Part shown: positions 31 to 35,385 of the stretch, one piece after another
Position numbering within the stretch: the first letter of the stretch is position 1
Layout of the letters: each line of letters starts with the position of its first letter
DNA from: Candidatus Iainarchaeum sp.
GTDB lineage: Archaea; Iainarchaeota; Iainarchaeia; Iainarchaeales; JAFGBZ01
Reading direction: 5' to 3'
Assembly: GCA_016932875.1 (NCBI GenBank)
Contig: JAFGBZ010000008.1
Location: 1-35,963, forward strand
DNA length: 35,963 nucleotides
Notes under the pieces: generated by a model
Seen by the model: the letters and a program-made list of their open reading frames with translations, nothing else
Told to the model about the DNA's origin: nothing
Database searches by the model: none
Translations under genes and position numbers: made by a program

Positions 31-3000
31 ATGGGTTTGAAAATTAATTTTAATTTAAAGTATGCTGTGCTATTTATTTCAATTTTTTTAATTCTTCCTT
101 TTTGTTCTGCACTGACTTTCACTGATTCAAGCAATGCTTCTTATTTCAGTGAAGGAACTGTTTCTAATACAACTGCAGGTGCAACTGATGTAAATCTTGC
201 ATTAACAGGCGGAGCATATTATTCTAACGGAACATTTACTTCAAAAGTGTTTGATTCAGACACTCCAGGAACAATTTGGAATAGTATTGTTTTTGATGAA
301 AGAAATCGTTCAAAAGAACCGTTGCCTAATTCAGCAGGAAGCGATTATGAAATTTCAATGGCTAACAATAAACTTTTGTATCATATGGATTTTTCAGAAG
401 GCGAATGTTCTGATTCATCAGGAACAAGAAATGATGGAGCAGTTTATGGCGCAGAAGTTACTTCTGATTGCATTCTTGGAAGCAATGCATATACTTTTGA
501 TGGAAGAGATTATGTCTGCAAATTAGCCCCTGCAGAGTTAACAACCAGCGCATTTACAATTTCTGCTTGGATTAAAACAAGTTCTACTTCTGCAACACAA
601 ACAATTTTCAGTTTAAGTTCAGTTGAAGGATGCACTGATGAGATTTGGCTGTTTCCTGTAACTTATTTGAATTTTTATATCAGCACAATAAAAGGAACAA
701 GAAAATTAGGTTTTGCAACCGGTGCTGATGCAGGAACAGTATCTACTGGAACTTTTGGAACAGGATGGACTCATGTCGCAGTAACTTATAATTCAATTAG
801 TTCAAAATTGAGTTATTACATTAATGGAAGCCCTGCAGGAAACTTTGCAATTTTAGTAGGAAATCCTTCAGCAAATGCTTCTGTTGGAGCATTAAATTCA
901 AATGGAAACTTTACAAATTTTTTTGAAGGAAACATAGATGAATTAACTTATTTTACCAGAATTTTAACTCCTACTGAAATTTTAAATCATTATAAGCGCG
1001 GGATAATGGATTTGAATTTGCAGGTGCAATCATGTGCTTTAAGTGATTGTTCTGATTCCCCTGCTTTTTTAGGCCCTGACGGAACTGCTTCAACTTATTT
1101 CACTGATTCAAATGTAAGCACATGGGATTTAAATGCATTTGATGCAAACAGGTACTTCCAATATAAAGCTTTTTTCAGAACTGATGACACTAATGTATTA
1201 AAAGAAACAACTCCTTTTTTACAGGAAGTAAGAATTGATTACAGTAAAGGAAATTCAATTACTCCTGGAGATGTAAATATTTCCTGGCCTGTTTCAGGAA
1301 CATATATTTCAGGAAAGCATTCAATTGATTTTAATGCAGCACATTCAGAAGAACTGGAAACAATTGTTTCAATTTGGCTTTCACAAAATCCCGGAGATTT
1401 AAATTATCCTTTGGTTTCAGATTTAAATTTAGTTGGAAAAAATTATTGTTTTGATGCTGATGCAAACTGGATTACACCTAATAACTGTAAATTCATTGAC
1501 ACTTTATTTAATGGAATTGATTTGAATATTGATACTTCTTTATTTCCTGACGGAAATTATGTTGTTGACATTAATGCAGTAACACAATATGATTACAATT
1601 ATTTTACTTCAAGCGAAAGCTTTATGATTGATAACACTGCTCCAAGCACTGCATTAATTGAAATAAATTCAGGAGCTGAAACAACAACTAATCCAATAGT
1701 TCAATTAGAATTAAGCTGTTCAGATGCTGCAAGTGGATGCAGTGAAATGCAGTTCAGCTGTTCGAATAATGCTGAATGGGTAAATGATTTTAATTTAGGA
1801 ACTGGGCAAGGCGGTGCAATAGGAATTTTTGTCGGAGACCCAGATAATGATTCAGAAAACGAAATAATAAGCGCAAATCAAAATTTGAATACAATAAGCA
1901 TATTCAACTGGAATGGAAGCACATGGACAAACGACTTTAATTTAATTACACAAGAAATGCCTCAAGATTTATTTATTGAAGATTCAGATAATGATGGAGA
2001 AAATGAATTATTAGTAACAAATTATGATTCTAATTCAATAAGTTTATACAATTGGAATGGAAGCAACTACATAAACGACTATAATATAGTAACTCAAGGA
2101 AGCCCTACGGGTGTATTTGTTGGTGACGCAGACAATGATGGAGATAACGAAATAATTGTAGCAAACTTTGGATCTAACTCAGTCAGTATATATAATTGGG
2201 ATGAAGAAGCAATTGAAAACCAATATGTAAACGATTATAATTTAGCAACAAAAAACAATCCAATGCAAACATTTATTGAAGATGCAGATAATGATGGAGA
2301 AAATGAAATAATAGTAGTTAACTGGGCTGGCGACACAGTAGGAATATATAATTGGAATGGAAGCAACTACATAAACGACTATAATTTAAATAATTATAAT
2401 GGAGGTGTAAGACTTTTCGTTGGAGATGCAGATAATGATGGAGAAAATGAAATACTTACAGCTAATGCTGGTTCAGTTGGAGCAATAGTTATATATAATT
2501 GGAATGGAAGCACATGGATAAATGATTTTAATTTAAATGTTGAACAAGGAAGAAACGTATTTGTTGGCGATATAGATAATGATGGAGATAACGAAATTTT
2601 GGCAAAAAATGAAACATCTAATTTAATAAGCATATTTAGCTGGACTGAAGGCAACTACATAAATGACTATAATTTAACAACAGGAGCACCCACAACAATA
2701 TTTGTTGGCGATATAAATAATGATGGATTAAACAAAATTTTAATAGGAAATAATTCAATTACAAATCAAATAAGCATATTTAACTGGAACACTAACTTCA
2801 CTTCTTTGGAAAATTATTCTTCTTCAAAATCATTTAATTTAACTTCTCAATCTGGAGCTGACTGTAATTCAGATTATGGAGTTAAAACAGTTTATGTGAA
2901 ATATAAAGACAGGGCAGGAAATACTGTTATTGCAAGCGATTCAATTGAATATGTTGAATCTATTCCTGATTTGAATTTTATTTTTCCAACTGAAGAATAT

Positions 3001-6000
3001 ATTAAAGGAGAAACCCATTCAATTGATTTTAATGTAAGAATTGAAGATAATTATGATTTAAATGCAAGTATTTATTATATTGCTGCAAGCATCCCTCAAC
3101 AAACTTATACGTTATATAAAGATGTAAATCTTGATTCAACTTATTATTGTGTTGATTTAGATAATGATAATTCAACTGTAAATACATGCAGTTTTATTGA
3201 TACTAAATGGAATGGAATTGATTTAAATGTTGATTTCAATTCATTCATTGCAAACCCAACTACCTCAAATTATATTCAAATTGATATTAATGCTTCAAAT
3301 GGTTCAAATGCAACATTTACAAGCAATACTTTTGCAATAGATAAAAGTCCGCCAAGAAATTCAACTATTTCAATTAATTCAGGAAATAGTGTAACTACTT
3401 CAACTGATTTAAATTTAAGTTTAAATTATCGCGATATGACTTTACCAGATAGCGGTTATAATGAAATGAGTTTTTCTTGTGATAATAATGCAGGTTGGAG
3501 CGATGAAATTGAATTAAAGGATTCAATTAAGGTGTCTGCCAGCCCTAAATCTGTTGATTTAGATAATGATGGAGATAATGATTTAGTTGCGCTTTCAACA
3601 ACGAGTCATGCAGTATATATTTATATTTGGAATGAAGTTACTGAAAGTTTTAATGATGCAATAATTTTACCAATAGAAACAATTGATTCAACTTTTTCTT
3701 TAGAAGTAGGTGATGTTGATAATGATGGTTATAAAGATATTGCTGTTGTCGGACGCGGAGTTCCGGGATGGGTTTACATAGTTAAAGGCCCTACTTGGAA
3801 ATCATTTGAAACAATTATTGGTTTAGGCAAACAACCAAGCAGTATTGCAATAGGAGATATAGATAACGATGGAGATAATGACATGATTACTTCTAATTAT
3901 GGAGATAACACAATGGATTTCTTTCAATGGAACGGAAATAACTGGGATGTAAGCTCTGTTCCTGCAACAAGTATTCCTTATGAAGTTGTTATTGCTGATG
4001 CAGATAATGATGGAAGAAATGAAATTCTTTTAGCTCAAGGTTATTGGGATGGAAGTGTTTTAATCAAAAGATGGAATGGTTCAGGATTTGATACAGTTAA
4101 AACACTTACAACAGATCAGTATACACATTATGTAACTGTAGGCGATGCAGATAACGATGGAGACAATGATGTAATAGCTGTTTCAAGCTTTTATAAACCT
4201 GAAACACTGCAAATGTTTGACTGGAATGGAGAAGACTGGGGCGCAGTTCAGAAAATAGGATTTACTGATTCTGCTCAAATACGTTTTGCATTTGTTTTTG
4301 ATGCAGATAATGATTTAAATAACGAAATTCTTTTAGCAAACCGTTCTGATACAAATGATTATTATTATATTTTGGACTGGAATGGAAACGGATTTAATAT
4401 TACTGAACAAATTTCAGCATCAAATGGTTCACAGCATGTTTTTTCAGGAGACATAAATAATGATGGATACAATGATTTAGTTGCATCAATTCAAGCTTCA
4501 AATACACTTTCATTAAGATACTGGGATTCAGGTTATACTGAATGGGAAGCTTACAATAGTTCAAAATTATTTGATTTAGCTGATTATGAAAATGTAGGCT
4601 GTTCAACAGGATATGGGACTAAAACAATTTATGTTAAATATAGTGATTTAGTTGGAAATGAATTTATTACAAGCGATTCAATTGAATTAGTTGAAGGAAT
4701 TGATGTTAATATTATTTCACCTGTTTCAGGAGATTACTGGAGCAATCATCATTCAATTGATTTCAATGTAAAAGCAGGAGAATATGATTTAAACGCATCA
4801 ATTTATTTAATTGAATCATTTCCTTATATTGGAAGTCCTTTAGTTTTATACAAAGATGTTAATTTAGATTCAACTGCTTACTGCATTGATTTAGATAATA
4901 ATAATGCAACAACTAACACTTGTTCATTTAAAAACACTATTTTTGATGGAATTGATTTGAATATTGATACTGTATTATATGCAGACAATAATTATACAAT
5001 ACAAGTAGATATTAATTCTTCAAGTGGAGCAAGCAGTACAGAAACAAGTTCAAGTTTTATGATTGATAACACTATTCCGGAAACAGCAAATCTAGCTTTC
5101 ACAAGTGAGTATAATCCTAATGTAATAACTACTTCAGTTCTTCCTCTTGCATTAAATTGTTCTGATTCAGGAAGCAATTGCAGTGAAATGCAGTTTTCTT
5201 GTTCAAATAATTCTGCACTTGAAAAAACAATGGATGCAATCATTGATTATTCTGATGAATCAAATGATGGATGCAATTACTTTTCTCTGTTTGCTGATAA
5301 TGTGGATGAGGATGAAGAAAAAGAAATTATTGTAGGTTATTACTGTGAAAGATATGATGGTTCGCCTTACTCTTATATAAGAATTTACAATAATTATGGC
5401 TCTGGCTGGGTTAATGATTTTAATGCAGAATTAGGAGAAGATTATGCATTAAGTACAATCAAAAAAATATTTGTAAGCGATTCAGATAATGATGGAAGAA
5501 ATGACATAACTGTTTCTTCTGTTGATGATGAAAGAATTCTTGTATTCCAATGGAATTCATTAGAAGAAGCATATGTGATTGTACAAGATTACACTTCCTC
5601 ATTTACTGAAAGTATAACATATGAAATATTCATTGATGATGCAGATAATGAAGGAACAAATGATATACTTTATAACCCAGGAGACATTCTTCCATGGTTT
5701 AATGGAAACTGGGGTTATGGACCAAGCGGTTCTTGGCTTGGAGGATATACCCTAGGAGGCGAAGCCGATCTCACAAACGGATATATTGCTGATGCAGATA
5801 ATGATGGAAGAAATGAAGTATTATTCATGCATACTATAGATGAAGTACCTCATTCTATTGATTTATATGAATGGGATGATAATGAATGGATTGCAGAACA
5901 CAGAATTGAAATTGATCAAGCGTTTGAAGCAAGCGCAATGGATGTAATTGTTGCTGATGCTGATAATGATTCAAAAAATGAAATAATTGTTTTAAGTTCT

Positions 6001-9000
6001 CTGGAAGGAAAAACAATCAGATTGTTTGAATGGAATGGAAGCACTTGGGAAAATGATTACAATATTAATGGTTTTGAAATTACTGAAGGAGAATTGTTTG
6101 TTGCAGATATTGATAATGATTCAAATAATGATATTCTTGTAATGAATATTGATTTAAAAAAAATAATTGTTTATTCATGGAAAGGAAGCACTTGGGAAAA
6201 TGATTTTAATATAAGCACAAACAAAAGATTACGAAGTTTTTTTGTTTCTGATTTAAATAATGATGGATTAAATGATTTGATTTTCCTGACTGCTGAAGAA
6301 GGTTCAATTGTTGATATCAATTTATCAGTTTATAATTGGAATGATTCTTTCACTTCATGGGAAAATTATTCAACTGAAAAATCATTTGATTTAAGTGCAA
6401 ACTCTGCAGTTGACTGCAATTCAGAGTATGGAACCAAAACTCTTTACACTAAATTTAAAGATAGAGCAGGAAATACAAGGATTGCAGAAAAAGAATTTAT
6501 TTATGCAAGCCAGCCAGTAATTACAGTTAATTATCCTAAAAGCACTTATATTTCAACAATAAATAATTCTGTTGTTGATATTAATTTCACTGTAACTGAT
6601 CCTTATTATGTGACTTCAACTTATCTTGCAAAAAAATATTATTCTGAAACAAAGGGAGCAAAAGAAAATTATTTAGGAGATACTGTTCTTACAAGAGAAG
6701 CAGAAAATACAAATCATTCAGTTGAATGGGATATAAGCAGTATTGCTGATGGAAATTATTATGTTGATTTGAATTTAAATAAAGCAATTGACAGCAGTTA
6801 TTTATATGATTTTAATTCAACTGATACTTCTGTTTACTTTGATGGAACTCGTCCAATAAGTTCAAGTGATGCAAATTCAGGCTGGCAGAAAACTGATTTC
6901 AATTTAGGAATTAGTGTTATTGAAGATTCAAATAATTATGCTTTAAAATACAGAATTGATTTAGATGCAACTGAAGCAATAAGCTGGAGTTCATGGATGG
7001 ATTATGAAGCAACAGGAATTGATTTCCAAAGCGATGGAAATTATGCAATTGATTTTAATGCAACTGATGCTGCAGGTAACAGCGAAAATGCTTCAGCAAT
7101 TCCTAACAGAGCATATATATTAGTTGATAAAACAACTCCAAATAGTTCAAGTGATGCAAATTCAGGCTGGCAGAATACTGATGCAAATGTGAGTTTAACT
7201 TGCAGTGATGTTAATGATTTAGCTGATTATAGTGACTGCAATTATGTTAAATACCAGCTAGATAATGATTCAAGCAATGATGTAAATTACAGTTCTGTAA
7301 TGGACTGGAATGGAGAAGGAATTCAAATAACTGAAGATGGAAATTGGGCGATAAAATACTGGGCAGTAGATAATGCAGGAAATGAAGAAACAGATCCAAT
7401 TGATTATGTTTTAATCGCTAGCGGAAGCCCTGTAGTCAATATTACTAATCCAACAGATGGCGCTTCTTATACTTCAGGAACTTCAAGTGTTACAGTAACC
7501 TATGAAGGAACTCCTGCAGGAAATCCAATAGATTATTATGAAGTGAGAATTAATTCAGGTTCATGGATTAATAATGGAACAAATTCAAGTTATGAATTCA
7601 CTGAATTAACTACTGGAACAAGTTATACTGTTGAAGTAAAAGTTGTTGATACTGCATTAAATGAAGGAACTGATTCAGTTTCATTTAGCATTGAAAATAC
7701 AGGAGGAACTTCAACTCAAACTTGTGCTGAATTAGGTGGAATTGAATGCATCCCAGGAAATCAAACATGTATTGGGCCTTTACTGTGCTGTGAATGGGTT
7801 TGCACTGGATATATTGGAGGCGCAAGCGATACTGCTAATTGTTATGCTTCAAGTGAATGTAATTCAATTCAGACTCTTGAAAAAGATTTAAGCATCGGAT
7901 TTTTTATCACAAACATAGATAATCCTGGTTCACAACATTTTGTTGAAGGAAACAGAATATTGTTCAGCATTATTGCAATAAATTCAGGTTCAGAAAATAT
8001 CACTACTCCGTTTACAGTAAAATTATGGGATGAATTTAATTCAGTTGAAATGACTTCAGAAACAATTAATTCGCTTAATTCAGGAGAGCAAAGAAATATT
8101 TCATTTGAATTTGTTTATAGTTCAAAGAATACCAAAATGAGTAAATGGAATGAAAAAGAAGTTTTATTTACTGCAATAGTTGATGCAGATGAAGAAATAA
8201 TTGAAGTAAATGAATTAAATAATGAATCAACTGCTACTGCAAGATTTGGATTGCTTTCAAATTTAACTTTTTCAGCAATGCCTGTACTGCTTGCAGGAAG
8301 CGATGTAGTAAGCACTCCATTCACAATTATTAATAAGGATGCTGAAATAACAACTCCTTTCAAAATAGGGGTTTCAGTTAATAATATTGGAGAAAATATG
8401 ACTTATTATACAGTTAATTCAATGGGTAAAAACAGCACATTACAGTTTAATTACAATTATACTTTTTCAACAGGGCAAGGAGAAATAACTCCTAAAACAG
8501 GAATTAAAACAATTATTCTTGAAGAAGAAAAAGAAAATACTGCATTATTTGCAGGAGATCCAGGAGAAACAATTTTCTTTTTTGGAATAGATTATGAAAA
8601 TATAATTGTTGAATCAAATGAAGGAGATAATAATTCCTTGCTTATTTATCAGGAAGCGCTTCCTGATTTAGAATTTGAGCCAGAAACAGATAACACAATA
8701 ACAGGAATTATAAATCAAGAAATAATTCTTTCAGGGAATATTAATAATATTGGTTCAAAAGAAAGCGGAAGCTTTAACACAAGAGTTTATTTAAGTTCAG
8801 AAAATATGCCTGAAGAAAAAATAATTGAGCTTTCATCAATCGGAATTAATGCAAGAAACAGTGTTGCAGTTGAATTTGAACTTTCTGAATTTGATTATGC
8901 AGGAAATTATTTTGCAAGAATAGTTATTGATGAAGATGAAGAAGTAACTGAACTGGATGAAACAAATAACCAATATATTTTCAATATGCAAATTATTGAT

Positions 9001-9492
9001 GAAAACAGTCTTTACTCTTATGATGAATTTATTAATAATGAATATCTTTGGGCTACTGTGGCAGAAACAGTAAATAAAAATTCAAGAGAATATGAATTTG
9101 AAGCAGATTTAAATCCAATAAACATTGAAGAATTAACTTTAGATAATCGCTGGGGAGAAAACATTGCATATATATTTAAATTACAGGAAATGCAGTCTGA
9201 AAATAAAGGCGCATTTATCCTTGAAGCAAGCGAAACAAATATGGATTATTATTCAAGCTATGATTCAGAAATAATTGATGAAAGCACAAACTGTTACAGT
9301 TATATGCCTGAAAGTTATGAAATGGGTGCAGATACATTTGTACGCTGGTTTAATGGGCAATATTATCCTACTACAAATGAACCAAGCTTCCTTTCATTAA
9401 TGCATTATTACAGAATTAATTCAATTTCATTTAATTTCCTTCAGGTTGGACATAGATTTAATGAAGGATACTGCGAATATGGAGGCGCTTAA
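31..9492 (+). CDS. Giant secreted multidomain surface/adhesin-like protein (3153 aa)
   Basis: Uninterrupted 9.46-kb ORF in a stop-rich AT-rich background. ATG at 31 follows purine-rich GGGAAGAG. N-terminal hydrophobic signal/anchor (AVLFISIFLILPFCSA). LamG/concanavalin-type lectin signature (AYTFDGRDYV..FTISAWIK..WTHVAVTY..FEGNIDELTYF, nt ~343-1002). Three FG-GAP/VCBS propellers. Two Ig-like repeats starting SSSDANSGWQ (~6850-7420). FN3-like segment (~7423-7705). Cys-rich segment (~7720-7865). CARDB-like domains ending in motifs such as EVNELNNES, ESNEGDNNS and ELDETNNQY (~7886-9000). Orphan C-terminal ~165 aa. No C-terminal TM helix. Confidence 0.9.
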   Translation: MGLKINFNLKYAVLFISIFLILPFCSALTFTDSSNASYFSEGTVSNTTAGATDVNLALTGGAYYSNGTFTSKVFDSDTPGTIWNSIVFDERNRSKEPLPNSAGSDYEISMANNKLLYHMDFSEGECSDSSGTRNDGAVYGAEVTSDCILGSNAYTFDGRDYVCKLAPAELTTSAFTISAWIKTSSTSATQTIFSLSSVEGCTDEIWLFPVTYLNFYISTIKGTRKLGFATGADAGTVSTGTFGTGWTHVAVTYNSISSKLSYYINGSPAGNFAILVGNPSANASVGALNSNGNFTNFFEGNIDELTYFTRILTPTEILNHYKRGIMDLNLQVQSCALSDCSDSPAFLGPDGTASTYFTDSNVSTWDLNAFDANRYFQYKAFFRTDDTNVLKETTPFLQEVRIDYSKGNSITPGDVNISWPVSGTYISGKHSIDFNAAHSEELETIVSIWLSQNPGDLNYPLVSDLNLVGKNYCFDADANWITPNNCKFIDTLFNGIDLNIDTSLFPDGNYVVDINAVTQYDYNYFTSSESFMIDNTAPSTALIEINSGAETTTNPIVQLELSCSDAASGCSEMQFSCSNNAEWVNDFNLGTGQGGAIGIFVGDPDNDSENEIISANQNLNTISIFNWNGSTWTNDFNLITQEMPQDLFIEDSDNDGENELLVTNYDSNSISLYNWNGSNYINDYNIVTQGSPTGVFVGDADNDGDNEIIVANFGSNSVSIYNWDEEAIENQYVNDYNLATKNNPMQTFIEDADNDGENEIIVVNWAGDTVGIYNWNGSNYINDYNLNNYNGGVRLFVGDADNDGENEILTANAGSVGAIVIYNWNGSTWINDFNLNVEQGRNVFVGDIDNDGDNEILAKNETSNLISIFSWTEGNYINDYNLTTGAPTTIFVGDINNDGLNKILIGNNSITNQISIFNWNTNFTSLENYSSSKSFNLTSQSGADCNSDYGVKTVYVKYKDRAGNTVIASDSIEYVESIPDLNFIFPTEEYIKGETHSIDFNVRIEDNYDLNASIYYIAASIPQQTYTLYKDVNLDSTYYCVDLDNDNSTVNTCSFIDTKWNGIDLNVDFNSFIANPTTSNYIQIDINASNGSNATFTSNTFAIDKSPPRNSTISINSGNSVTTSTDLNLSLNYRDMTLPDSGYNEMSFSCDNNAGWSDEIELKDSIKVSASPKSVDLDNDGDNDLVALSTTSHAVYIYIWNEVTESFNDAIILPIETIDSTFSLEVGDVDNDGYKDIAVVGRGVPGWVYIVKGPTWKSFETIIGLGKQPSSIAIGDIDNDGDNDMITSNYGDNTMDFFQWNGNNWDVSSVPATSIPYEVVIADADNDGRNEILLAQGYWDGSVLIKRWNGSGFDTVKTLTTDQYTHYVTVGDADNDGDNDVIAVSSFYKPETLQMFDWNGEDWGAVQKIGFTDSAQIRFAFVFDADNDLNNEILLANRSDTNDYYYILDWNGNGFNITEQISASNGSQHVFSGDINNDGYNDLVASIQASNTLSLRYWDSGYTEWEAYNSSKLFDLADYENVGCSTGYGTKTIYVKYSDLVGNEFITSDSIELVEGIDVNIISPVSGDYWSNHHSIDFNVKAGEYDLNASIYLIESFPYIGSPLVLYKDVNLDSTAYCIDLDNNNATTNTCSFKNTIFDGIDLNIDTVLYADNNYTIQVDINSSSGASSTETSSSFMIDNTIPETANLAFTSEYNPNVITTSVLPLALNCSDSGSNCSEMQFSCSNNSALEKTMDAIIDYSDESNDGCNYFSLFADNVDEDEEKEIIVGYYCERYDGSPYSYIRIYNNYGSGWVNDFNAELGEDYALSTIKKIFVSDSDNDGRNDITVSSVDDERILVFQWNSLEEAYVIVQDYTSSFTESITYEIFIDDADNEGTNDILYNPGDILPWFNGNWGYGPSGSWLGGYTLGGEADLTNGYIADADNDGRNEVLFMHTIDEVPHSIDLYEWDDNEWIAEHRIEIDQAFEASAMDVIVADADNDSKNEIIVLSSLEGKTIRLFEWNGSTWENDYNINGFEITEGELFVADIDNDSNNDILVMNIDLKKIIVYSWKGSTWENDFNISTNKRLRSFFVSDLNNDGLNDLIFLTAEEGSIVDINLSVYNWNDSFTSWENYSTEKSFDLSANSAVDCNSEYGTKTLYTKFKDRAGNTRIAEKEFIYASQPVITVNYPKSTYISTINNSVVDINFTVTDPYYVTSTYLAKKYYSETKGAKENYLGDTVLTREAENTNHSVEWDISSIADGNYYVDLNLNKAIDSSYLYDFNSTDTSVYFDGTRPISSSDANSGWQKTDFNLGISVIEDSNNYALKYRIDLDATEAISWSSWMDYEATGIDFQSDGNYAIDFNATDAAGNSENASAIPNRAYILVDKTTPNSSSDANSGWQNTDANVSLTCSDVNDLADYSDCNYVKYQLDNDSSNDVNYSSVMDWNGEGIQITEDGNWAIKYWAVDNAGNEETDPIDYVLIASGSPVVNITNPTDGASYTSGTSSVTVTYEGTPAGNPIDYYEVRINSGSWINNGTNSSYEFTELTTGTSYTVEVKVVDTALNEGTDSVSFSIENTGGTSTQTCAELGGIECIPGNQTCIGPLLCCEWVCTGYIGGASDTANCYASSECNSIQTLEKDLSIGFFITNIDNPGSQHFVEGNRILFSIIAINSGSENITTPFTVKLWDEFNSVEMTSETINSLNSGEQRNISFEFVYSSKNTKMSKWNEKEVLFTAIVDADEEIIEVNELNNESTATARFGLLSNLTFSAMPVLLAGSDVVSTPFTIINKDAEITTPFKIGVSVNNIGENMTYYTVNSMGKNSTLQFNYNYTFSTGQGEITPKTGIKTIILEEEKENTALFAGDPGETIFFFGIDYENIIVESNEGDNNSLLIYQEALPDLEFEPETDNTITGIINQEIILSGNINNIGSKESGSFNTRVYLSSENMPEEKIIELSSIGINARNSVAVEFELSEFDYAGNYFARIVIDEDEEVTELDETNNQYIFNMQIIDENSLYSYDEFINNEYLWATVAETVNKNSREYEFEADLNPINIEELTLDNRWGENIAYIFKLQEMQSENKGAFILEASETNMDYYSSYDSEIIDESTNCYSYMPESYEMGADTFVRWFNGQYYPTTNEPSFLSLMHYYRINSISFNFLQVGHRFNEGYCEYGGA
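1783..2805 (+). repeat. FG-GAP/VCBS beta-propeller 1: seven ~48-aa blades
   Basis: Seven consecutive units of the form NDxNL..x..(F/I)(V/I)(G/E)DxDNDGxNE(I/L)..N...N.(I/V)S(I/L)(Y/F)NWNGS(T/N)(W/Y), counted directly from the translation. Confidence 0.8.
3532..4545 (+). repeat. FG-GAP/VCBS beta-propeller 2: seven blades
   Basis: Seven Asp-rich Ca-loop-like motifs at regular spacing: DLDNDGDND, GDVDNDGYKD, GDIDNDGDND, ADADNDGRNE, GDADNDGDND, FDADNDLNNE, GDINNDGYND. Each is followed by a W-containing strand such as WNGNNW, WNGSGF or WNGEDW. Confidence 0.75.
5281..6360 (+). repeat. FG-GAP/VCBS beta-propeller 3: seven blades, more divergent
   Basis: Seven motifs: ADNVDEDEEKE, SDSDNDGRND, DDADNEGTND, ADADNDGRNE, ADADNDSKNE, ADIDNDSNND, SDLNNDGLND. 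They have interspersed WNGSTWEND-type strands. Confidence 0.7.
9481..9485 (+). promoter_or_regulatory. Shine-Dalgarno-like GGAGG for the 941-aa ORF, inside the 3' end of the giant ORF
   Basis: GGAGG lies 7 nt upstream of ATG 9493. The giant ORF stop TAA (9490-9492) directly abuts that ATG, an arrangement typical of translational coupling. Confidence 0.6.
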
Positions 9493-12318
9493 ATGAATAA
9501 AAAAATATTTGCATTTATTTTCATTCTTTTTTTGGCGCTTAATTGTTCTGCTGCTTCACAGTTAACGCTTCAGATAAATGAATCAAGCATTATTGAAGCA
9601 ACTCATGTTTATGATAATGATAATTCAATTGCTTTTGTTGATGTGTTTATTATAAATGCGCAAGGAACAACTGAACATTCATTCACAAATGTGACTGAAG
9701 GACAGGAACTTTTAGGAATAACTGAAGAAGAAACCGCTTACTATAATTTTATGGATGATGACGGAACAGAAATAGGACTTGGTTTTCTTATTCCGATAAG
9801 CGGAATTCCTTCAACTCCGCCAGTAATTCCAAGCATTACTGTAATACAAGATGCATGGATTACTCCAAGTGTTTATGATGAAGAAAATGGAAGATACCAA
9901 TTATTGATTGAAGCAGATGTAAATGAAAATCATTCATTAGATAATGTTGAATGGATTTACTCTATTGAAGGTTCACTGCAGAATCAGTCTCTTGAATTAA
10001 CAGGCGGACCAAATATTTATTCAGGAATTCTTGATAATTTAACTGGAGAAAAAATTATTACTTCTAAAATAAGAGCAACTGATTCGCAGGCAAAAATATA
10101 TGAATTCAATTTAGGAAAAAAAATATTTAATTTAATGGCAGTAAATCCTTTCTGTAATTATTCTCAAAATCCAGATGTTGATGGAGACGGATTATTCACA
10201 TGCATGGATGTAGAATGCTTATGGAATTATATTCTTAATTTTGAACTAAATCCTGAATGCAGAAACATTGAAGATTATGCTTCAGCAATAGATGACGGAG
10301 CAATTACTGCAGGCGATGTACAAAGAATGTTCCTGCAGGTTTGCCCTTATGGGCGATGCAGTGAAGGAGAATGTATTGTTCAAGGAAATTTAAAGGAAAC
10401 TAAAAAAGAAAATAAAATATTTTTACAAGGAGAAGGACAAAGTTCAATTCAGTTAAAATTCACTGACTCTGAACATAGCGATGTTTATGTAAGCCATCTT
10501 TATGATGATGATGCAACTATAGGAAAACTGGATGTTTATTATGATAATGGAAATGGAACAACACGCCTTGAATACTTTAATGTTTCACAGAATCAATATT
10601 TAGGAATAAGCATCCCTGAAGATGCGACAAGTTATTACAGTTTTTCTGATTATGATGGAACTATCATAGGGATTGGATTTTTCCTTGAAATAAGTGAACC
10701 TGATGCACCAAGTTTCTGTGAACTTTATCCTCAGGATCCTTCATGTGTTCCTGCTCCGGATTTAATTGAAAGTGCAACAATAAAAGCAAGATTAAATGAA
10801 ACAGAAAAGAAATATTATCTGGATTTTGAAGTAAAGGTTTTCGCAGGAAATGAAATTGACTGGGTTAAAATTGAATATAATTTTTTCAATAAAAATTATG
10901 TTGAAACACTGACTTTAACAGGAAATGAAACAACTTTTACAGGAAGTTTAGGGCCTTTTGAAAATGAATTAATTACTTTTTCAAGAGTAAGAGCAAAATC
11001 AGAAGAAAATACAGATACATTGTACCTTTCTCCAAGATGGGATTATCTTTTGGTTGGAATGATTTCATGCGAAGAAATTTGCTGGGATAATATTGATAAT
11101 GATGCAGACGGCTTCATTGATGAAGGCTGTGCAATTTTGCCCCAGCTTTATCCAAGAATAACTTCCTTGCCTGAATTTGTTTTAATTGGAAAATATTTTA
11201 CTTTAAGTTATGCAATAGGAAATTCAGGAGGAGAAGATGCAAATTCATTCAAATTCAAAACATTATTTGAAAAAGAAAAAATAAGAGAAGAAACAATTAA
11301 TTCTCTTAAAATAAATGAAAGCAAAGAATTTGAAGAAGAACTTTTTTCAGGAATTGAACCAGGAAGAAAAACAGTTAAAATTGAAGTTGATATTCTTAAC
11401 CAAATAAGTGAAAGCAATGAATCAGATAATATTCTTAACACAACACTTTGGGTAAGATTAAACCAGTTTGATGTGAATTACAATTACAATGAAACTTATT
11501 TTTTAGGAGATATAAGAGAAATAAGATTAAGAGATTTATTCAGAGAACTTGTTTCTGATGCAAATTGCGAAATAACTTATCCAAGCGGAAAAAAAATAAA
11601 TCTTGTTTCAGATGAAAAAGGTGTAATTCAGTTTACTTTGCTTGAAGGCGGAACACATAATCTTAAAGCAGAAAAAGAAGGATTTGAAACCTTTGAAGGA
11701 AACTTTGAAATAGAAGCAATAAATGTAGGATACAGAAAAGAACTTGAAATAGGAGATGTGCAGTTAATTAACCTTAAAACAAAAGACGGAAAACCAGTGG
11801 TTAATGCAACAGTAACAATTATTTCCCCAAGCGGAAAAACAGTGAAAATTGAAACAAATGAAAAAGGACAGGCATTTTTTGTAGTGCAGGAAAAAGGAAC
11901 ACATGCATTTATAATTAAAAGAAAAGATGTGAGTTTTTATAATTCAAGATTTGATTCATTAACAACAATAGAACAAATAAGTCTTGTTATGAATCAGTTC
12001 ATTGACATAACTGCAGGAAAAACACTGCTGGACTGGGTATTATTCATTATATTAATCGCATTAAGTGTTTATTCTGCAAGAACAGCATATAAACAGCTTA
12101 AATCACGCATGAAAAAAGGAAGCACAAGAGAAATAAAACTGCAGTTAACAGGAATTTCAATGATTGCAGGAATGCTTTTCATTGCACCAATTGCAGTAAA
12201 AGTTTTATTCGGAATAGGAATTGCATTTGCATTGGTTTTGATTGAAGTTGCTGCTGAAATGCTTGCAGAATATATGCTTAAACAAAAAGAAAAAACCAAA
12301 AAAATTAAAGTTGAATAA
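9493..12318 (+). CDS. Membrane-anchored surface protein (941 aa), putative partner or anchor of the giant protein
   Basis: Signal peptide (IFAFIFILFLALNCSAAS). Two duplicated ~280-aa modules (nt ~9550-10390 and ~10420-11135). Each module ends in a Cys-bounded Asp-rich motif: dockerin/EF-hand-like DVDGDGLFTCMD, or CWDNIDNDADGFIDEGC. CARDB-like domain ending in ISESNESDN. Two carboxypeptidase-regulatory/PEGA-like beta-sandwiches (ITYPSGKKINLVSDEKGVIQF and VTIISPSGKTVKIETNEKGQAFF). Two C-terminal hydrophobic helices (WVLFIILIALSVYSA and ISMIAGMLFIAPIAVKVLFGIGIAFALVLI). Confidence 0.85.
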   Translation: MNKKIFAFIFILFLALNCSAASQLTLQINESSIIEATHVYDNDNSIAFVDVFIINAQGTTEHSFTNVTEGQELLGITEEETAYYNFMDDDGTEIGLGFLIPISGIPSTPPVIPSITVIQDAWITPSVYDEENGRYQLLIEADVNENHSLDNVEWIYSIEGSLQNQSLELTGGPNIYSGILDNLTGEKIITSKIRATDSQAKIYEFNLGKKIFNLMAVNPFCNYSQNPDVDGDGLFTCMDVECLWNYILNFELNPECRNIEDYASAIDDGAITAGDVQRMFLQVCPYGRCSEGECIVQGNLKETKKENKIFLQGEGQSSIQLKFTDSEHSDVYVSHLYDDDATIGKLDVYYDNGNGTTRLEYFNVSQNQYLGISIPEDATSYYSFSDYDGTIIGIGFFLEISEPDAPSFCELYPQDPSCVPAPDLIESATIKARLNETEKKYYLDFEVKVFAGNEIDWVKIEYNFFNKNYVETLTLTGNETTFTGSLGPFENELITFSRVRAKSEENTDTLYLSPRWDYLLVGMISCEEICWDNIDNDADGFIDEGCAILPQLYPRITSLPEFVLIGKYFTLSYAIGNSGGEDANSFKFKTLFEKEKIREETINSLKINESKEFEEELFSGIEPGRKTVKIEVDILNQISESNESDNILNTTLWVRLNQFDVNYNYNETYFLGDIREIRLRDLFRELVSDANCEITYPSGKKINLVSDEKGVIQFTLLEGGTHNLKAEKEGFETFEGNFEIEAINVGYRKELEIGDVQLINLKTKDGKPVVNATVTIISPSGKTVKIETNEKGQAFFVVQEKGTHAFIIKRKDVSFYNSRFDSLTTIEQISLVMNQFIDITAGKTLLDWVLFIILIALSVYSARTAYKQLKSRMKKGSTREIKLQLTGISMIAGMLFIAPIAVKVLFGIGIAFALVLIEVAAEMLAEYMLKQKEKTKKIKVE

Positions 12319-12337: not shown

Positions 12338-13333
12338 ATGATTAGAGTTGCAATAAATGGTTTTGGCAGAATTGGAAGAATTGTTTTCAGACAGGCATTG
12401 GAAGAAAAAGAAATTGAATTGGTTGCAGTAACTTTTTCTCATGGAAATCAGGCTGCAGCACACTTTCTTGAATTTGATTCAGTGCATGGAAAATTAAATA
12501 AAAAAATTGAAGCAACAGAAAAAGGATTTTCAGTTAATGGAAAAGAAACACTGGTTATAAATGAACGTGATCCAACAAAATTACCTTGGAAAAAATTAGA
12601 TATTGATGTGGTTGTTGAAAGTACTGGAGCATTCAAAACATATGCTGACTGTGAAAAGCATTTAAATGCAGGGGCAAAAAAAGTTTTGTTAAGTGCTCCT
12701 GCAAAAGATGAAAAAATTCCTTCAATAGTATTAGGAGTAAATGAAAAAGCATTAACTGACGGTTCAAAAGTAATTGATAATGCTTCATGCACAACAAATT
12801 GTTTGGCTCCAATAGCAAAAGTATTGCATGAAAATTTTGGAATAAAAAACGGATTTATGACAACAATTCATGCTTATACTAATGATCAAAGAATTTTAGA
12901 CGGAAGTCATAAAGATTTACGCAGAGCAAGAAATGCTGCAACAAACATTATTCCTACAAGCACTGGTGCAGCAAAAGCTATTGGAAAAGTAATTCCTGAA
13001 TTAAAAGGAAAATTAAACGGAATAGCAGTAAGAGTTCCTGTTGCAGACGGTTCATTAGTTGATTTGGTTTTTGAATCAGAAAAACAAACAACAATTGAAG
13101 AAATAAATAAAGCAATGAAAAAAGCATCAGAAGGAAACTTAAAAGGAATTCTTGAATACACTGAAAAACCAATTGTTTCAAGCGATGTGATTGGAAACAA
13201 GCATTCAAGCATTTTTGATGCTCAAAGCACAATGGTTTCAGGAAAAATGATTAAAGTTCTTTCATGGTATGATAATGAAGCAGGATATTCTCAAAGAATG
13301 ATTGATGCAGTAAAAAAAATCAAATTCAGTTAA
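12338..13333 (+). CDS. gap: Glyceraldehyde-3-phosphate dehydrogenase, type I (bacterial/eukaryotic class)
   Basis: N-terminal Rossmann motif INGFGRIGR. Catalytic signature SCTTNCLAP. WYDNEAGYS near the C-terminus. 331 aa, typical for class I GAPDH. Confidence 0.93.
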   Translation: MIRVAINGFGRIGRIVFRQALEEKEIELVAVTFSHGNQAAAHFLEFDSVHGKLNKKIEATEKGFSVNGKETLVINERDPTKLPWKKLDIDVVVESTGAFKTYADCEKHLNAGAKKVLLSAPAKDEKIPSIVLGVNEKALTDGSKVIDNASCTTNCLAPIAKVLHENFGIKNGFMTTIHAYTNDQRILDGSHKDLRRARNAATNIIPTSTGAAKAIGKVIPELKGKLNGIAVRVPVADGSLVDLVFESEKQTTIEEINKAMKKASEGNLKGILEYTEKPIVSSDVIGNKHSSIFDAQSTMVSGKMIKVLSWYDNEAGYSQRMIDAVKKIKFS

Positions 13334-22218: not shown

Positions 22219-25200
22219 ATGAATAAATTTTCGTTGTTTGTCTTAATCTTGTTTTTGTTGTTTTTCTGCGCTTGTTCTGAACAAAGCGAGGCTGAAAGGC
22301 TTGCATGCATTAATTATTCTTCTTTTTATTCTAATTCTGTTCCTGACTGCAGCAGCTCTGAAGACTGCCTTAAAAAAGTTAAAACTGCATTTAGTCTTGA
22401 AACTGAGTTTTTGAGCACAAATATTTCATGGGAAACAGACAAATATCTTTTTCACACCGCAAAATCATGGTTTTATTTTTCTGAAGCAAAAAAAAATCTT
22501 AAAGAAATTTATTCTTCATGTGTTAAAGGAAAAGAATTTTCTTCAACTGCTAAAAATGCAAATGAGTTAAGCAATAACATAAATCAGCTGTTTAAAGAAA
22601 TTGATTCGAGTACAAAAGAATCAATAATTATTCTTTCATTAATTGACGCTGAACTTAAAGAACAGGATATTAACCTTGCAAGAGAAACTGCTTTGTTCAG
22701 AACACATTCAAAAGTAATTGAAAATATTAACCAAGCAGGACATCCTGAACTGAAATTTGGTTCTGATTTATATTATGCTTCTTATCTTTCACGAGTTAAA
22801 GAATTCAAGAGTTTTCTTGAAATAAAGGAAGTGGATTTTATTGATTCGTTTAAAATTTCTGTTGCTGAACTTATTGAAAAATTTTTTCCAGAATTAAAGA
22901 AAAAAATCCCGTTCAAGGAATTTTTTGTTCCGCTTATTGCTGAAATTACAATAGAAAAAGTAAATTTATCTATTGAAGGAATGATTCTGCATGATTCGGT
23001 TGCTGTAATGAAAGGAATTAGCGCCCAGAAAGCAGTTGAAGCAATTGACGGGTTTGTTTCAGCGCAAAATAGCTCTGTTGCAATGAAATTTATTTCAATT
23101 ATAAAAGAAATTAATGAAACCAAAAAAGAATTTGAAAAAAAAATACAGGAAATGATTAATTTATCAGAAAAAAAGATAAATGCCTCAGAGGAAACCCTGA
23201 AAAATATTTCTTTCAGTTTCGATGAATTCACTTCTGAAGTGCTTCAAGAACTCGCATCAAATTCAGGGGAAGTGATTGTAAAAACAAGTGAAACTGATTT
23301 TTCACTTTCTTCATTCAAAGAAAATGAAATGAAAAAAATAAATGAAATTAAGCTTGAACTGAATGAATTTAAAATTGAAAAATCAACTGAAAAAATATCT
23401 TTAGGACAGGAATATGCAACAGCAAAAAAAATTTATGATGAAACAGAAAAAATCAGCAAAGAAATAGATTATTTCAGCAATGAAGAAAAAAATTCAATTT
23501 ATTTTTTATGCGAAAGCAGAGTATCTGAAATAAAGGAAATAATTTATGCATTCAATCAGTTTTCTTCAAATGAAATTGAAGCAGTTGCTTCAGCAGTAAA
23601 ATTCAATATTGCATTATTTGAAAAATCATCAGAAGAAAAAAAACTTGAATTATGCCCTAAAATAATCAATAAATTTATTGAATTCAGAAGCGCTGAAAAC
23701 AATGAAGAACTATTTATTGAAAACAGTGTTCTTGAAAGCAAAGAATGTGTTTTATTGCTCCGCGAAATGATTTCAAGTAAAATTTTAAGTGATTTCAGGT
23801 TTGCTTTTGAAAAACTGGTTTTAAAGGAAAACAATTATGAATCGCTTCAGGAATGCATTGGATTAAAGGAAAACATGATTAAAGCAGTGTTTGGCTCAAA
23901 AGAATTCATTGAATTTGAAGAAAACCTGACTGAATTTGAAGAAATTGTTTTATCATTGAAATTAATTCCTTCTGCTAAAAACAGTTATGGATTAGAAAAA
24001 AAGCTTGAATTTTACTCTGAATTCAAAAAAGAAAGCAAAATAACTGAATTTCTTAAAAAATCAAATTTAACTGAAGAAATCATTAAAGAAACAGAAAATG
24101 CTGAAAAAATTCTTAAAGAAGAACTTGTTTTATTTATTGAACGAAATGCATTAATTGAAACAGGGCTTAATGAAGCAGTAAAAGCAGGAGAAAAAATAAA
24201 TTCAGTTACAAAAATAAAGTTATTTAATCCTTCAAATGCTTTTGAAGAAAAAATTTCAGTTGAACTCAAATTCAGCGCAGAAAACGCTGAACTGATTTAT
24301 TCTTCTGCAGATTGCACTGCTGAATTTGAAAAAGAAAAAATTATTATTTATTTTATTTCGCTTCCTGAACGAGAAACAATTCTTGAAATCAATTCATTAA
24401 TTATGCCTGCAACTTTAACTGAAACAGAAAAACTAATTTCAATAACCCAAAATAAAGCACTTTTTATGAAAACAATTACAGTAAATGCATCGCAGAAAAT
24501 AAGCCTGCTTCAGATTGAAACAATAATACCAAATAACAGTTCAGAGATAAGCATTCTGAGAAACAGCAAATTAATTGAATTTGAAAAAACAGAGGAAAAA
24601 CTTTCTTTTTATCTTTCACAGTCTGAAAATAAGGATAAAATTGAAGTGTTTTATTCTTTTTTTAATCCGATTAAAACTGTTTTTGAGCTTTCTGAATTAA
24701 AAGATGAAACTGAAACAGAAAAAGAATACACTTACAAGTTTAAAATTGAAAACCTGCTTTCAGAGAAAATTGATTTAATTGAATTAATGCCTTTGCTTCC
24801 TTCAAATAATTCAATTGTATCACAGTTTATTGAAAATGAAAAAAACATTTCAGTTAAAACTGAAAACATGAAAACAATTATTTCAGTTAAAAATCTTCAA
24901 GCAAAAGAAAAAAGAGAATTTACTTTAATTGTAAAAACTTCACAGGAAAAAGAATTCTGGGAAAATAAATTCAATGAATTAAAAGAAGAACTGCTTATTT
25001 TAGATAAACAAGAAACTGCTGAACTTCTTGAAAAAATAAATGCCCTTGAAGCAGTATTCACTACTTCAAAGAAAAATATAACTGAATTCACTAAACTAGA
25101 AAAAGAAGCAAATGAAATAATAAAAAAAAGCAATGAAGAAAAAGAAAAAGAAGCAGAATTCATGCTTTTGCGCTTGAATGCAGAAGAAAGACTTTCAGAA

Positions 25201-34555: not shown

Positions 34556-34563
34556 TTAATCAC

Positions 34564-35310: not shown

Positions 35311-35385
35311 GTTGGTAAATAATAAAAAACAAATCTATAAATAGTCTTTAAAGATTAATAATACTGTTGCCTTTAAAGTGAGATT

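What the first reader, a model, noticed from the sequence alone, without database searches (positions are those of the whole stretch)
31..12318. Translationally coupled giant adhesin plus membrane-anchor gene pair: candidate host-attachment apparatus
The 3153-aa protein has an N-terminal signal/anchor but no C-terminal TM, sortase-like or other obvious anchoring signal. Its TAA stop (9490-9492) directly abuts the ATG of a 941-aa ORF, and that ORF's GGAGG lies inside the giant gene. This implies coupled, possibly stoichiometric expression. The partner has two C-terminal TM helices. It also carries duplicated modules, each ending in a Cys-bounded Asp-rich Ca-binding-like motif, one of them dockerin-like. 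The giant protein ends in a ~165-aa domain (nt ~8995-9489) with no motif I recognise. A plausible model is an anchor subunit holding a lectin + three-propeller + CARDB fibre on the cell surface. That is what an episymbiotic small-genome archaeon would need to hold a host. The pair takes up one third of the window. I do not know of a characterised two-component system with this architecture.
Basis: partly seen in the sequence, partly recalled or inferred. Interest (0 to 1): 0.8.

Follow-up and report, generated by a model that had tools for sequence, protein, structure and literature searches.

The report
Plug-and-socket surface protein gene pair
A small-genome archaeon (Iainarchaeota/Diapherotrites relative) encodes a 3153-residue lectin/propeller surface protein and, fused stop-to-start behind it, a membrane protein that most likely holds it on the cell. 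The same pairing recurs in 11 of 12 related loci, but the parts that define it match no described protein family.

Summary
ORF 31-9492 (3153 aa) and ORF 9493-12318 (941 aa) abut (TAA|ATG), with GGAGG at 9481-9485. The domain calls are right: LamG, three FG-GAP propeller supermodules, CARDB, and an unannotated ~164-aa C-terminal domain (CTD). The partner has a signal peptide, two duplicated ~190-aa modules, CARDB, two prealbumin-like domains and a membrane tail, modelled as three helices rather than two.

In 11 of 12 distinct related loci, a same-strand gene ending in the CTD sits directly before a partner-type gene, from a ~23-nt overlap to a 29-nt gap. Partner identity falls to ~25%. Upstream proteins range from 517 to at least 3970 aa, and three loci lie in unrelated neighbourhoods.

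Only the last CARDB plus CTD is shared by all upstream proteins; the heads vary. A fused relative (P0026) joins the giant's base directly to the partner's CARDB-to-tail half. It lacks exactly the CTD and the partner's N-terminal modules.

The best reading is a CTD "plug" docking onto the partner's N-terminal "socket". Binding was not shown, and host attachment is untested. The dockerin-like motif is sub-threshold and clade-specific. Sulfolobus SlaA/SlaB is the closest mechanistic analogue, without detectable sequence similarity. Verdict: new variant of a known kind, moderately interesting.

The parts
31..9492 (+). Gene for the 3153-aa secreted surface protein (the 'giant')
   Evidence: ORF and translation. 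Pfam finds LamG, FG-GAP and CARDB. Full-length homologs are 48% identical (L002) and 37% identical (L003).
31..111 (+). Predicted cleavable Sec signal peptide (aa 1-27, ...FCSA|LT)
   Evidence: This is the giant's only hydrophobic segment. Complete homologs have comparable n-h-c signals ending in small residues: VNS, LAS, FAQ, ATA. Cleavage is inferred; no predictor was available.
508..981 (+). Laminin_G_3 / concanavalin-A-like lectin domain (aa 160-317); part of the variable head
   Evidence: Pfam E 1.9e-19. The N-terminal ~400 aa, which include this domain, are missing in the L003 homolog.
1270..6600 (+). Three repeated supermodules (aa ~414-980, ~981-1558, ~1559-2190): Ig-like domains, a Cys-containing domain, an FG-GAP beta-propeller and a post-propeller domain; variable head
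   Evidence: Self-comparison; FG-GAP_3 E 1.6e-44. No counterpart was found in the part of the L004, L008 and L009 giants that is held, nor in the complete L013 protein.
7231..8997 (+). Conserved base (aa ~2401-2989): tandem Big/OmpL47-like domains, fn3, Cys-rich knot (aa 2565-2610) and CARDB-type domains
   Evidence: This is the only part, together with the CTD, that aligns with the distant giants of L004, L008 and L009 (23-25% identity). It is collinear with P0026 aa 1256-1889.
8998..9489 (+). C-terminal domain (CTD, aa 2990-3153), the proposed 'plug'; motifs YSYxxFxxNEP and RMHYxRI
   Evidence: No Pfam or PDB match. It sits at the extreme C-terminus of the gene directly upstream of a partner-type gene in 11 of 12 loci (HMM E 1e-19 to 1e-60). 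It is absent from all 152 partner-search hits, including the cis-anchored fusions.
9481..9495 (+). Junction: GGAGG (9481-9485), TAA stop (9490-9492), ATG (9493-9495)
   Evidence: SD-like motifs with overlapping or abutting frames recur in relatives. Only 6 of 24 window genes carry an SD-like motif, including this one.
9493..12318 (+). Gene for the 941-aa membrane partner
   Evidence: ORF and translation. About 25 full-length-like representatives exist among 1.84 billion proteins. AF2 model has mean pLDDT 77.8.
9556..10143 (+). N-terminal module A (aa 22-217): two beta-sandwiches with the VxDDDGSIxFVDVF motif; proposed 'socket'
   Evidence: No Pfam match. Present in every partner-type protein and absent from the cis-anchored relatives.
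10150..10392 (+). Clade-specific Cys-rich helical insert (aa ~220-300), weakly dockerin-like
   Evidence: Dockerin_1 E 0.0018, below the cut-off, half domain only. Modelled as helices. Absent in P0004 and P0005.
10438..11058 (+). N-terminal module B (aa 316-522), a duplicate of module A
   Evidence: 33% identity to module A; two beta-sandwiches in the model.
11068..11130 (+). Acidic double-disulfide repeat, CEEICWDNIDNDADGFIDEGC (aa 526-546)
   Evidence: NCBIfam acid_disulf_rpt, weak. It has the highest identity where present (55%) but is missing in P0002.
11140..11961 (+). CARDB (aa 550-655) plus two prealbumin/CarboxypepD_reg-like domains (aa 660-823): the stalk
   Evidence: Pfam, self-repeat and model.
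11965..12315 (+). Conserved membrane tail (aa 825-941): stalk helix, three TM helices, K/R-rich cytoplasmic loop (KSTREK-type) and C-terminal ...KIKVE
   Evidence: Found in 38 of the 152 retrieved proteins, including the C-termini of large LamG/PKD/CARDB proteins. No Pfam or NCBIfam family passes threshold.

Best explanation
The two genes encode a two-part cell-surface assembly.

**The exported protein.** The upstream protein is exported by a cleavable signal peptide and has no anchor of its own. Its conserved ~164-aa C-terminal domain (CTD), together with the preceding CARDB, acts as a plug.

**The partner.** The downstream protein is inserted in the membrane by a conserved three-helix tail. 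It raises a stalk of CARDB and prealbumin-like beta-sandwiches. At its tip it presents two tandem double-beta-sandwich 'DDD' modules, which act as the socket for the CTD.

**Expression.** The genes are transcribed together, and translation of the partner starts at an SD inside the end of the upstream gene. The two products are therefore made together.

**Function.** The distal head is free to vary between lineages; here it is a LamG lectin plus three FG-GAP propellers. It most likely binds glycans or proteins on another surface, possibly a host cell.

**What is shown.** The anatomy, the conserved adjacency, the modular co-occurrence and the fusion relative are shown.

**What is inferred.** Physical CTD-to-socket binding, signal-peptide cleavage, co-transcription and the adhesive role are inferred.
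For: 1. In 11 of 12 distinct loci with a partner-type gene, the gene directly upstream on the same strand ends in the CTD. Junctions run from a ~23-nt overlap to a 29-nt gap.
2. This holds at ~25% partner identity.
3. It holds in L015, L018 and L019, whose neighbourhoods lack the PfkB/GAPDH synteny, so the pair moves as a unit.
4. Upstream proteins range from 517 to at least 3970 aa and share only the last CARDB plus CTD, so the heads are swapped while the plug is kept.
5. Rosetta-stone evidence: P0026 aligns collinearly with giant aa 2401-2988 and then with partner aa 526-917. It lacks the CTD, the partner's signal peptide and both DDD modules, and it stands alone in its locus.
6. Other large LamG/PKD/CARDB proteins (P0117, P0119, P0131) carry the same tail in cis, again without DDD modules or CTD.
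7. The giant has no second hydrophobic segment and no known sorting signal.
8. The partner model is a bead string with the DDD modules at the far end from three TM helices.
9. An SD-like motif lies inside the upstream gene's 3' end in the window and in relatives, while most window genes lack one.
Against: - No binding or interface was demonstrated. The CTD model failed (pLDDT 38), and multimer prediction was not possible.
- One partner (P0018, L016) has no upstream CTD gene.
- Gene overlaps are common in this compact genome, and most loci also share wider synteny.
- The mirror-tree check is not specific. CTD divergence correlates about equally with module A, module B and the tail (r 0.67-0.77; partial correlations 0.56-0.60).
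- The tail is more conserved than a passive anchor needs, so the partner may do more than anchor.
- Nothing here shows what the head binds.
Confidence: 0.6

Rival explanations
1. The pair is a two-component S-layer-type envelope, like SlaA/SlaB. The upstream protein forms a lattice or canopy, and the partner is its membrane stalk. The role would be structural rather than adhesive.
For: - The logic matches SlaA/SlaB: a large, variable, anchorless outer protein and a smaller partner with N-terminal beta-sandwiches and a C-terminal membrane helix (PMC10903991).
- The locus is single-copy in the window and sits among housekeeping genes in many relatives.
- The partner is more conserved than the upstream protein: 61-64% against 48% for the closest relatives.
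Against: - Upstream proteins vary from 517 to at least 3970 aa with unrelated heads, which is hard to reconcile with a conserved lattice.
- LamG and FG-GAP are adhesion-type modules.
- An S-layer survey proposes a different 1039-aa protein as the Iainarchaeota S-layer protein (10.1101/2024.05.28.596244, supplement).
- There is no sequence similarity to solved S-layer proteins.
Confidence: 0.15
2. The two are co-regulated but physically independent surface proteins. The giant is released, or held by its own N-terminal helix or by glycan contacts. The partner is a separate membrane-anchored adhesin. Adjacency reflects operon economy in a compact genome.
For: - Overlapping and abutting genes are frequent in the window.
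- GAPDH follows only 19 nt later with its own SD.
- Much of the neighbourhood is syntenic.
- P0018 exists without an upstream CTD gene.
- The co-variation signal is not specific.
Against: - The CTD/partner pairing survives relocation to unrelated neighbourhoods.
- It survives wholesale head replacement.
- The fusion P0026 deletes exactly the CTD and the DDD modules.
- The N-terminal hydrophobic cores are short and end in small residues, as in cleaved signals.
Confidence: 0.15
3. The CTD is a sorting or processing signal, and the partner is a dedicated export, assembly or attachment factor rather than the final anchor. This would be comparable in logic to C-terminal sorting domains handled by a membrane machine.
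For: - The CTD always sits at the extreme C-terminus.
- The partner's membrane tail and cytoplasmic loop are unusually conserved: KSTREK, LPFQV and KAIKV motifs at 32-36% identity, equal to the ectodomains. This suggests interaction with other components.
Against: - No catalytic or transporter domain was found in the partner.
- The same tail ends large adhesin-like proteins in cis, where it can only be an anchor or an integral part of the protein.
- The partner's long beta-sandwich stalk suits display rather than processing.
Confidence: 0.1

Closest known systems
Sulfolobales two-component S-layer SlaA/SlaB (PMC10903991, PMC6911244)
   Same: A large, beta-rich, variable outer protein with no anchor of its own is held by a smaller co-encoded partner. 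[quoted passage not shown] The outer component is more variable than the anchor.
   Different: - No detectable sequence similarity.
- The partner here has eight beta-sandwich domains and three TM helices, where SlaB has three domains, a 132-aa coiled coil and one TM.
- The upstream protein carries adhesion modules and swaps heads between lineages.
- No lattice evidence. The phylum is different (DPANN against Thermoproteota).
Cohesin-dockerin display (cellulosome scaffoldin/anchoring proteins)
   Same: A modular plug-and-socket principle: a small C-terminal domain on variable cargo proteins binds repeated beta-sandwich modules of a cell-bound scaffold.
   Different: - No cohesin hit.
- The only dockerin signal is a sub-threshold half-domain in the partner, not in the cargo. 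It is absent from most family members.
- The CTD (~164 aa) is far larger than a dockerin.
DPANN LamG / beta-propeller / CARDB surface proteins (for example Mia14, PMC5498576) and giant nanohaloarchaeal 'SPEARE' proteins (PMC10266531)
   Same: Very large secreted proteins of small-genome archaea built from LamG, propeller, Ig-like and CARDB modules. They are proposed, not shown, to mediate cell-cell contact.
   Different: - Those reports describe single proteins, some membrane-bound themselves or carrying a VirB4-like ATPase.
- Neither paper describes a conserved CTD or a dedicated downstream anchor gene.
- No ATPase domain is present here.
Integrin alpha-type FG-GAP propellers
   Same: FG-GAP repeat propellers on an extracellular stalk, linked to a membrane protein with a conserved cytoplasmic tail.
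   Different: Only the repeat family is shared. The architecture, the number of propellers and the membrane partner are unrelated. Any signalling role is speculation.

Membership tests
SlaA/SlaB two-component S-layer | Sequence or profile similarity to SlaA or SlaB | tested here: not met
   The giant against all PDB chain sequences gave no hit at E<=0.001. The partner profile hit only CARDB-type and filamin Ig chains. That SlaA is among the PDB chains is assumed from PMC10903991, not checked.
SlaA/SlaB two-component S-layer | Adjacent genes for a large anchorless outer protein and a smaller membrane-anchored partner with beta-sandwiches | tested here: met
   conserved in 11 of 12 loci.
SlaA/SlaB two-component S-layer | Partner with a long C-terminal coiled coil and a single TM helix, forming trimers | tested here: not met
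   The model shows a 22-residue stalk helix and three TM helices. Oligomeric state could not be tested.
SlaA/SlaB two-component S-layer | Regular two-dimensional lattice on the cell | not testable with these tools
   Needs cryo-ET or electron microscopy of cells.
Cohesin-dockerin system | Dockerin domain (two Ca-binding loop-helix repeats) on the cargo | tested here: not met
   The cargo CTD has no Pfam hit. The only Dockerin_1 signal is in the partner: E 0.0018, 18.8 bits against a 22.9 cut-off, profile positions 34-57 only. It is absent in P0004 and P0005.
Cohesin-dockerin system | Cohesin beta-sandwich modules on the scaffold | tested here: not met
   Modules A and B have no Pfam hit even at E<=1. 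Foldseek gave only generic multi-Ig strings with TM-scores of 0.1-0.2.
Archaeal C-terminal sorting signals (PGF-CTERM and similar, archaeosortase-dependent) | Short C-terminal motif plus TM helix plus basic tail on the surface protein | tested here: not met
   There is no C-terminal hydrophobic segment in the giant and no NCBIfam sorting-signal model hit.
FG-GAP / LamG / CARDB domain families | Pfam profile match above the gathering score | tested here: met
   FG-GAP_3 150.7 bits, Laminin_G_3 70.7 bits, CARDB 54.7 bits in the giant and 48.1 bits in the partner.
Nanohaloarchaeal SPEARE-type giant proteins | Giant ectodomain with its own membrane attachment and a VirB4/TraG-like ATPase domain, with a second ATPase gene downstream (PMC10266531) | tested here: not met
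   No ATPase domain in the giant or the partner. The downstream gene is GAPDH.

The most novel reading that the evidence does not exclude
The CTD and the DDD modules are a previously undescribed, lineage-wide plug-and-socket display system of Iainarchaeota-type archaea. Any secreted protein that carries the ~164-aa CTD is mounted on a dedicated membrane stalk. The stalk's strongly conserved three-helix tail and cytoplasmic loop couple the outside adhesin to something inside the cell, giving an integrin-like link rather than a passive anchor.
Probability: 0.2. Interest if true: 0.75.

Novelty: new variant of a known kind. Interest (0 to 1): 0.55.

Why it matters
How DPANN archaea hold on to other cells or surfaces is largely unknown. 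Their huge LamG/propeller/CARDB proteins are routinely called adhesins, yet it is unclear how they stay on the cell.

This locus offers a concrete, testable answer for one phylum. Three unannotated modules are defined: the CTD, the DDD module and the three-helix tail. Their pairing rule (a CTD gene directly upstream of a DDD-tail gene) can be searched for in genomes.

It also gives a small set of constructs for binding assays or multimer prediction. The minimal natural pairs, with upstream proteins of 517-832 aa (L015, L018, L019), are much easier to express than the 3153-aa protein.

If confirmed, it would be a second, independently evolved example of the SlaA/SlaB-type principle of an anchorless outer protein held by a membrane stalk.

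Tried and rejected
- **Homolog search with the CTD alone** (175 aa) found nothing, not even the window's own protein. Yet the giants are in the collection. This was a sensitivity failure and cost one search.
- **Profile search with the 19-sequence alignment** returned only the five close relatives, because the candidate cap was saturated.
- **Genome-collection scan** found only L006 (the same contig as L003) and the partial L007.
A5 worked but used one pattern and gave four loci.
- **The CTD model** with four sequences failed (pLDDT 38), so no fold search was run on it. No interface prediction was possible.
- **Foldseek on the full partner model** gave only generic strings of Ig/fn3/MG domains.
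- **Mirror-tree comparison** of the CTD with partner regions was not discriminating.
- **Readthrough of the in-frame TAA** was considered and rejected. The two ORFs share a frame only in the window; relatives overlap by 1-23 nt, mostly out of frame.
- **A lipoprotein anchor** for either protein was rejected. The Cys near the signal-peptide end is not in a lipobox context and is not conserved.
- **N-glycosylation sequon enrichment** was rejected. The 68 observed compare with about 62 expected from composition (my arithmetic).
- **No tRNA or Rfam RNA** occurs in the window.
Full report
**1. The observation**

The window carries two abutting + strand ORFs, 31..9492 (3153 aa) and 9493..12318 (941 aa). 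The giant's TAA (9490-9492) touches the partner's ATG. GGAGG lies at 9481-9485, inside the giant gene and 7 nt before the ATG.

The giant's only hydrophobic segment is N-terminal (aa 3-33). The partner has an N-terminal signal and C-terminal hydrophobic stretches at about aa 839-866 and 883-929.

For the partner it finds CARDB and a CarboxypepD_reg/prealbumin-like domain.

Self-comparison shows three ~580-aa supermodules in the giant, each with a run of FG-GAP repeats. In the partner it shows a duplication of a ~190-aa N-terminal module (33% identity) and of the prealbumin-like domain.

The giant's last 164 aa and the partner's N-terminal modules match nothing in Pfam, even at E<=1, and nothing in PDB sequences.

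- An AlphaFold model of the partner (19-sequence alignment, mean pLDDT 77.8) has three C-terminal membrane helices after a stalk helix, not two.
- The 'dockerin-like' label rests on a sub-threshold half-domain hit.
- Overlapping or abutting genes are common in this compact genome, so the junction alone proves little.

**2. The organism**

Neighbouring genes are archaeal: cupin-type GPI, FttA/aCPSF1, NFACT and a proteasome beta subunit. GC content is about 30%.

The nearest partner homologs come from MAGs labelled Candidatus Diapherotrites / Candidatus Iainarchaeum. One relative sits on a 719-kb contig and another on a 1.24-Mb contig. This fits a DPANN-type small-genome archaeon. Nothing here shows whether it is an episymbiont.

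**3. Conservation of the pair**

The partner has few close relatives. An exhaustive profile search found about 25 full-length-like representatives at 50% clustering. Fetching their contigs gave twelve distinct loci with a partner-type gene and enough upstream sequence.

In eleven of them, the gene directly upstream on the same strand ends in the same C-terminal domain. CTD HMM E-values run from 1e-19 to 1e-60.

| Locus | Junction between the two genes |
|---|---|
| window | 0 nt |
| L002, L003, L004 | 4-nt ATGA overlap |
| L008 | ~23-nt overlap |
| L009 | ~19-nt overlap |
| L013 | 13-nt overlap |
| L014 | 1-nt overlap |
| L015 | 6-nt gap |
| L018 | 29-nt gap |
| L019 | 4-nt gap |

SD-like motifs sit in the 3' end of the upstream gene. 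In the window, only 6 of 24 genes have such a motif, the partner among them. This fits an internal gene of a polycistronic mRNA.

The exception is L016. Its partner P0018 follows a small gene on the opposite strand, and no CTD is found in the 10-kb contig.

Many loci share wider synteny, with PfkB upstream and GAPDH, GPI and PGK downstream. That alone could explain adjacency. But L015, L018 and L019 lie in unrelated neighbourhoods and keep the pairing. The pair therefore behaves as a unit.

**4. What is conserved and what varies**

Upstream proteins measure 3153, 3159, 2765, 3970, at least 2793, at least 3543, 1661, at least 1591, 832, 570 and 517 aa.
- The window's giant aligns over its full length only with its two closest relatives (48% and 37%). 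The latter lacks the N-terminal ~400 aa, including the LamG lectin.
- With L004, L008 and L009, only the last 660-800 aa align (23-25%).
- With L015, only the last CARDB plus CTD aligns.

The constant element is therefore the last CARDB plus CTD, with motifs YSYxxFxxNEP and RMHYxRI. The head is exchangeable.

In the partner, the constant elements are the two DDD modules, CARDB (lost in the ~730-aa variants), the prealbumin-like domain(s) and the tail. The first Cys-rich, dockerin-like insert exists only in the three closest sequences. The acidic double-disulfide repeat is missing in P0002.

**5. Fusion evidence**

P0026 (2177 aa) aligns collinearly with giant aa 2401-2988 (E 2e-27). That alignment stops where the CTD begins. 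P0026 then aligns with partner aa 526-917 (E 6e-56), starting where the DDD modules end.

P0026 has the tail but neither DDD modules nor CTD. It stands alone in its locus.

P0117, P0119 and P0131 are LamG/PKD/CARDB proteins that end in acidic repeats, a prealbumin-like domain and the same tail. They too lack DDD modules and CTD, and P0119 sits among housekeeping genes.

So the tail is a membrane module used either in cis or, when DDD modules are present, next to a CTD-bearing gene. A covalent link replaces exactly the two parts proposed to dock. This is classical gene-fusion evidence for a physical or functional link. It is an inference, not a demonstration.

**6. Mechanism proposed**

- The upstream protein is exported through a signal peptide that looks cleavable. 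The hydrophobic cores are short and end in CSA, VNS, LAS, FAQ or ATA. Cleavage is inferred.
- It has no other anchor and no known sorting signal.
- The partner is N-out, C-in with three TM helices. The K/R-rich loop and tail fit the positive-inside rule.
- The partner's model is a string of eight beta-sandwiches, with the DDD modules farthest from the membrane.
- I propose that the CTD binds the DDD modules. The variable head is then displayed at the end of a long stalk, and overlapping translation keeps the two proteins in step.
- The head modules (LamG, FG-GAP) are adhesion-type domains. The literature on DPANN surface proteins reads such proteins as cell-cell contact factors, without experiments (PMC5498576, PMC10266531).
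- What this head binds is unknown.

**7. Rival readings**

- *A SlaA/SlaB-like structural envelope.* This shares the logic (PMC10903991). It fits poorly with the exchangeable heads, and an S-layer survey proposes a different Iainarchaeota S-layer protein.
- *Independent, merely co-regulated proteins.* This is weakened by the relocated pairs and the fusion. It is kept alive by L016, by the frequent overlaps in this genome, and by a non-specific co-variation check.
- *A sorting-signal-plus-factor model.* This is suggested by the unusually conserved tail. However, the partner has no catalytic domain, and the tail also ends cis-anchored proteins.

**8. Known or new**

- The principle of an anchorless outer protein held by a co-encoded membrane stalk is known from Sulfolobales. 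[quoted passage not shown]
- LamG, propeller and CARDB proteins are known to be abundant in DPANN.
- The CTD, the DDD module, the three-helix tail and their pairing rule have no Pfam, NCBIfam or PDB counterpart. They did not come up in the papers I searched.
- I file this as a new variant of a known kind, of moderate interest. It gives a testable hypothesis about how one DPANN phylum mounts its surface adhesins. The key step, binding, still needs to be shown.

Noticed in passing
window 22219-26265 (+): A second large surface-type gene of 1348 aa with no Pfam or NCBIfam hit. It has a signal peptide ending in FFCACS and is very E/K/L-rich, so probably a long coiled coil. It has one C-terminal TM (aa 1304-1332) and a K-rich tail. 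A 1296-aa gene occupies the syntenic place in L002.
   Followed up: partly
window 12338-13333 (+) and flanks: GAPDH starts 19 nt after the partner's stop, with its own GGGGG SD-like motif, so it may be co-transcribed with the surface pair. The order PfkB | pair | GAPDH (with GPI, PGK and DFP nearby) is kept in L002, L003 and L013 and rearranged in L004.
   Followed up: partly
window, all gene starts: SD-like motifs precede only 6 of 24 predicted genes. Two of them, the partner and GAPDH, directly follow another gene on the same strand, which would suit internal operon positions. Most other genes may be leaderless or use other signals.
   Followed up: partly
window 33920-35910: Three adjacent genes for KaiC / ArlH(FlaH)-like ATPase-domain proteins: 33920-34555 (-), 34564-35310 (-) and 35386-35910 (+).
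   Followed up: no
window 11965-12315; P0026, P0117, P0119, P0131: The partner's three-helix membrane tail, with its cytoplasmic KSTREK-type loop and C-terminal KAIKV-type end, is as conserved as the ectodomains (32-36% against 22-37% mean pairwise identity). It recurs at the C-terminus of other large surface proteins. That is more conservation than a passive anchor needs, and its binding partner is unknown.
   Followed up: partly
L016 168-740 and 1363-4083: The one partner-type gene without an upstream CTD gene (P0018) is preceded by a small ORF that carries half a DDD module (HMM E 1e-20). This may be a remnant or a separate small protein.
   Followed up: no
L003 17351-18223: A LAGLIDADG-type homing-endonuclease-like gene (faint Pfam hit) interrupts the otherwise syntenic region downstream of the pair in the Candidatus Iainarchaeum MAG.
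   Followed up: no
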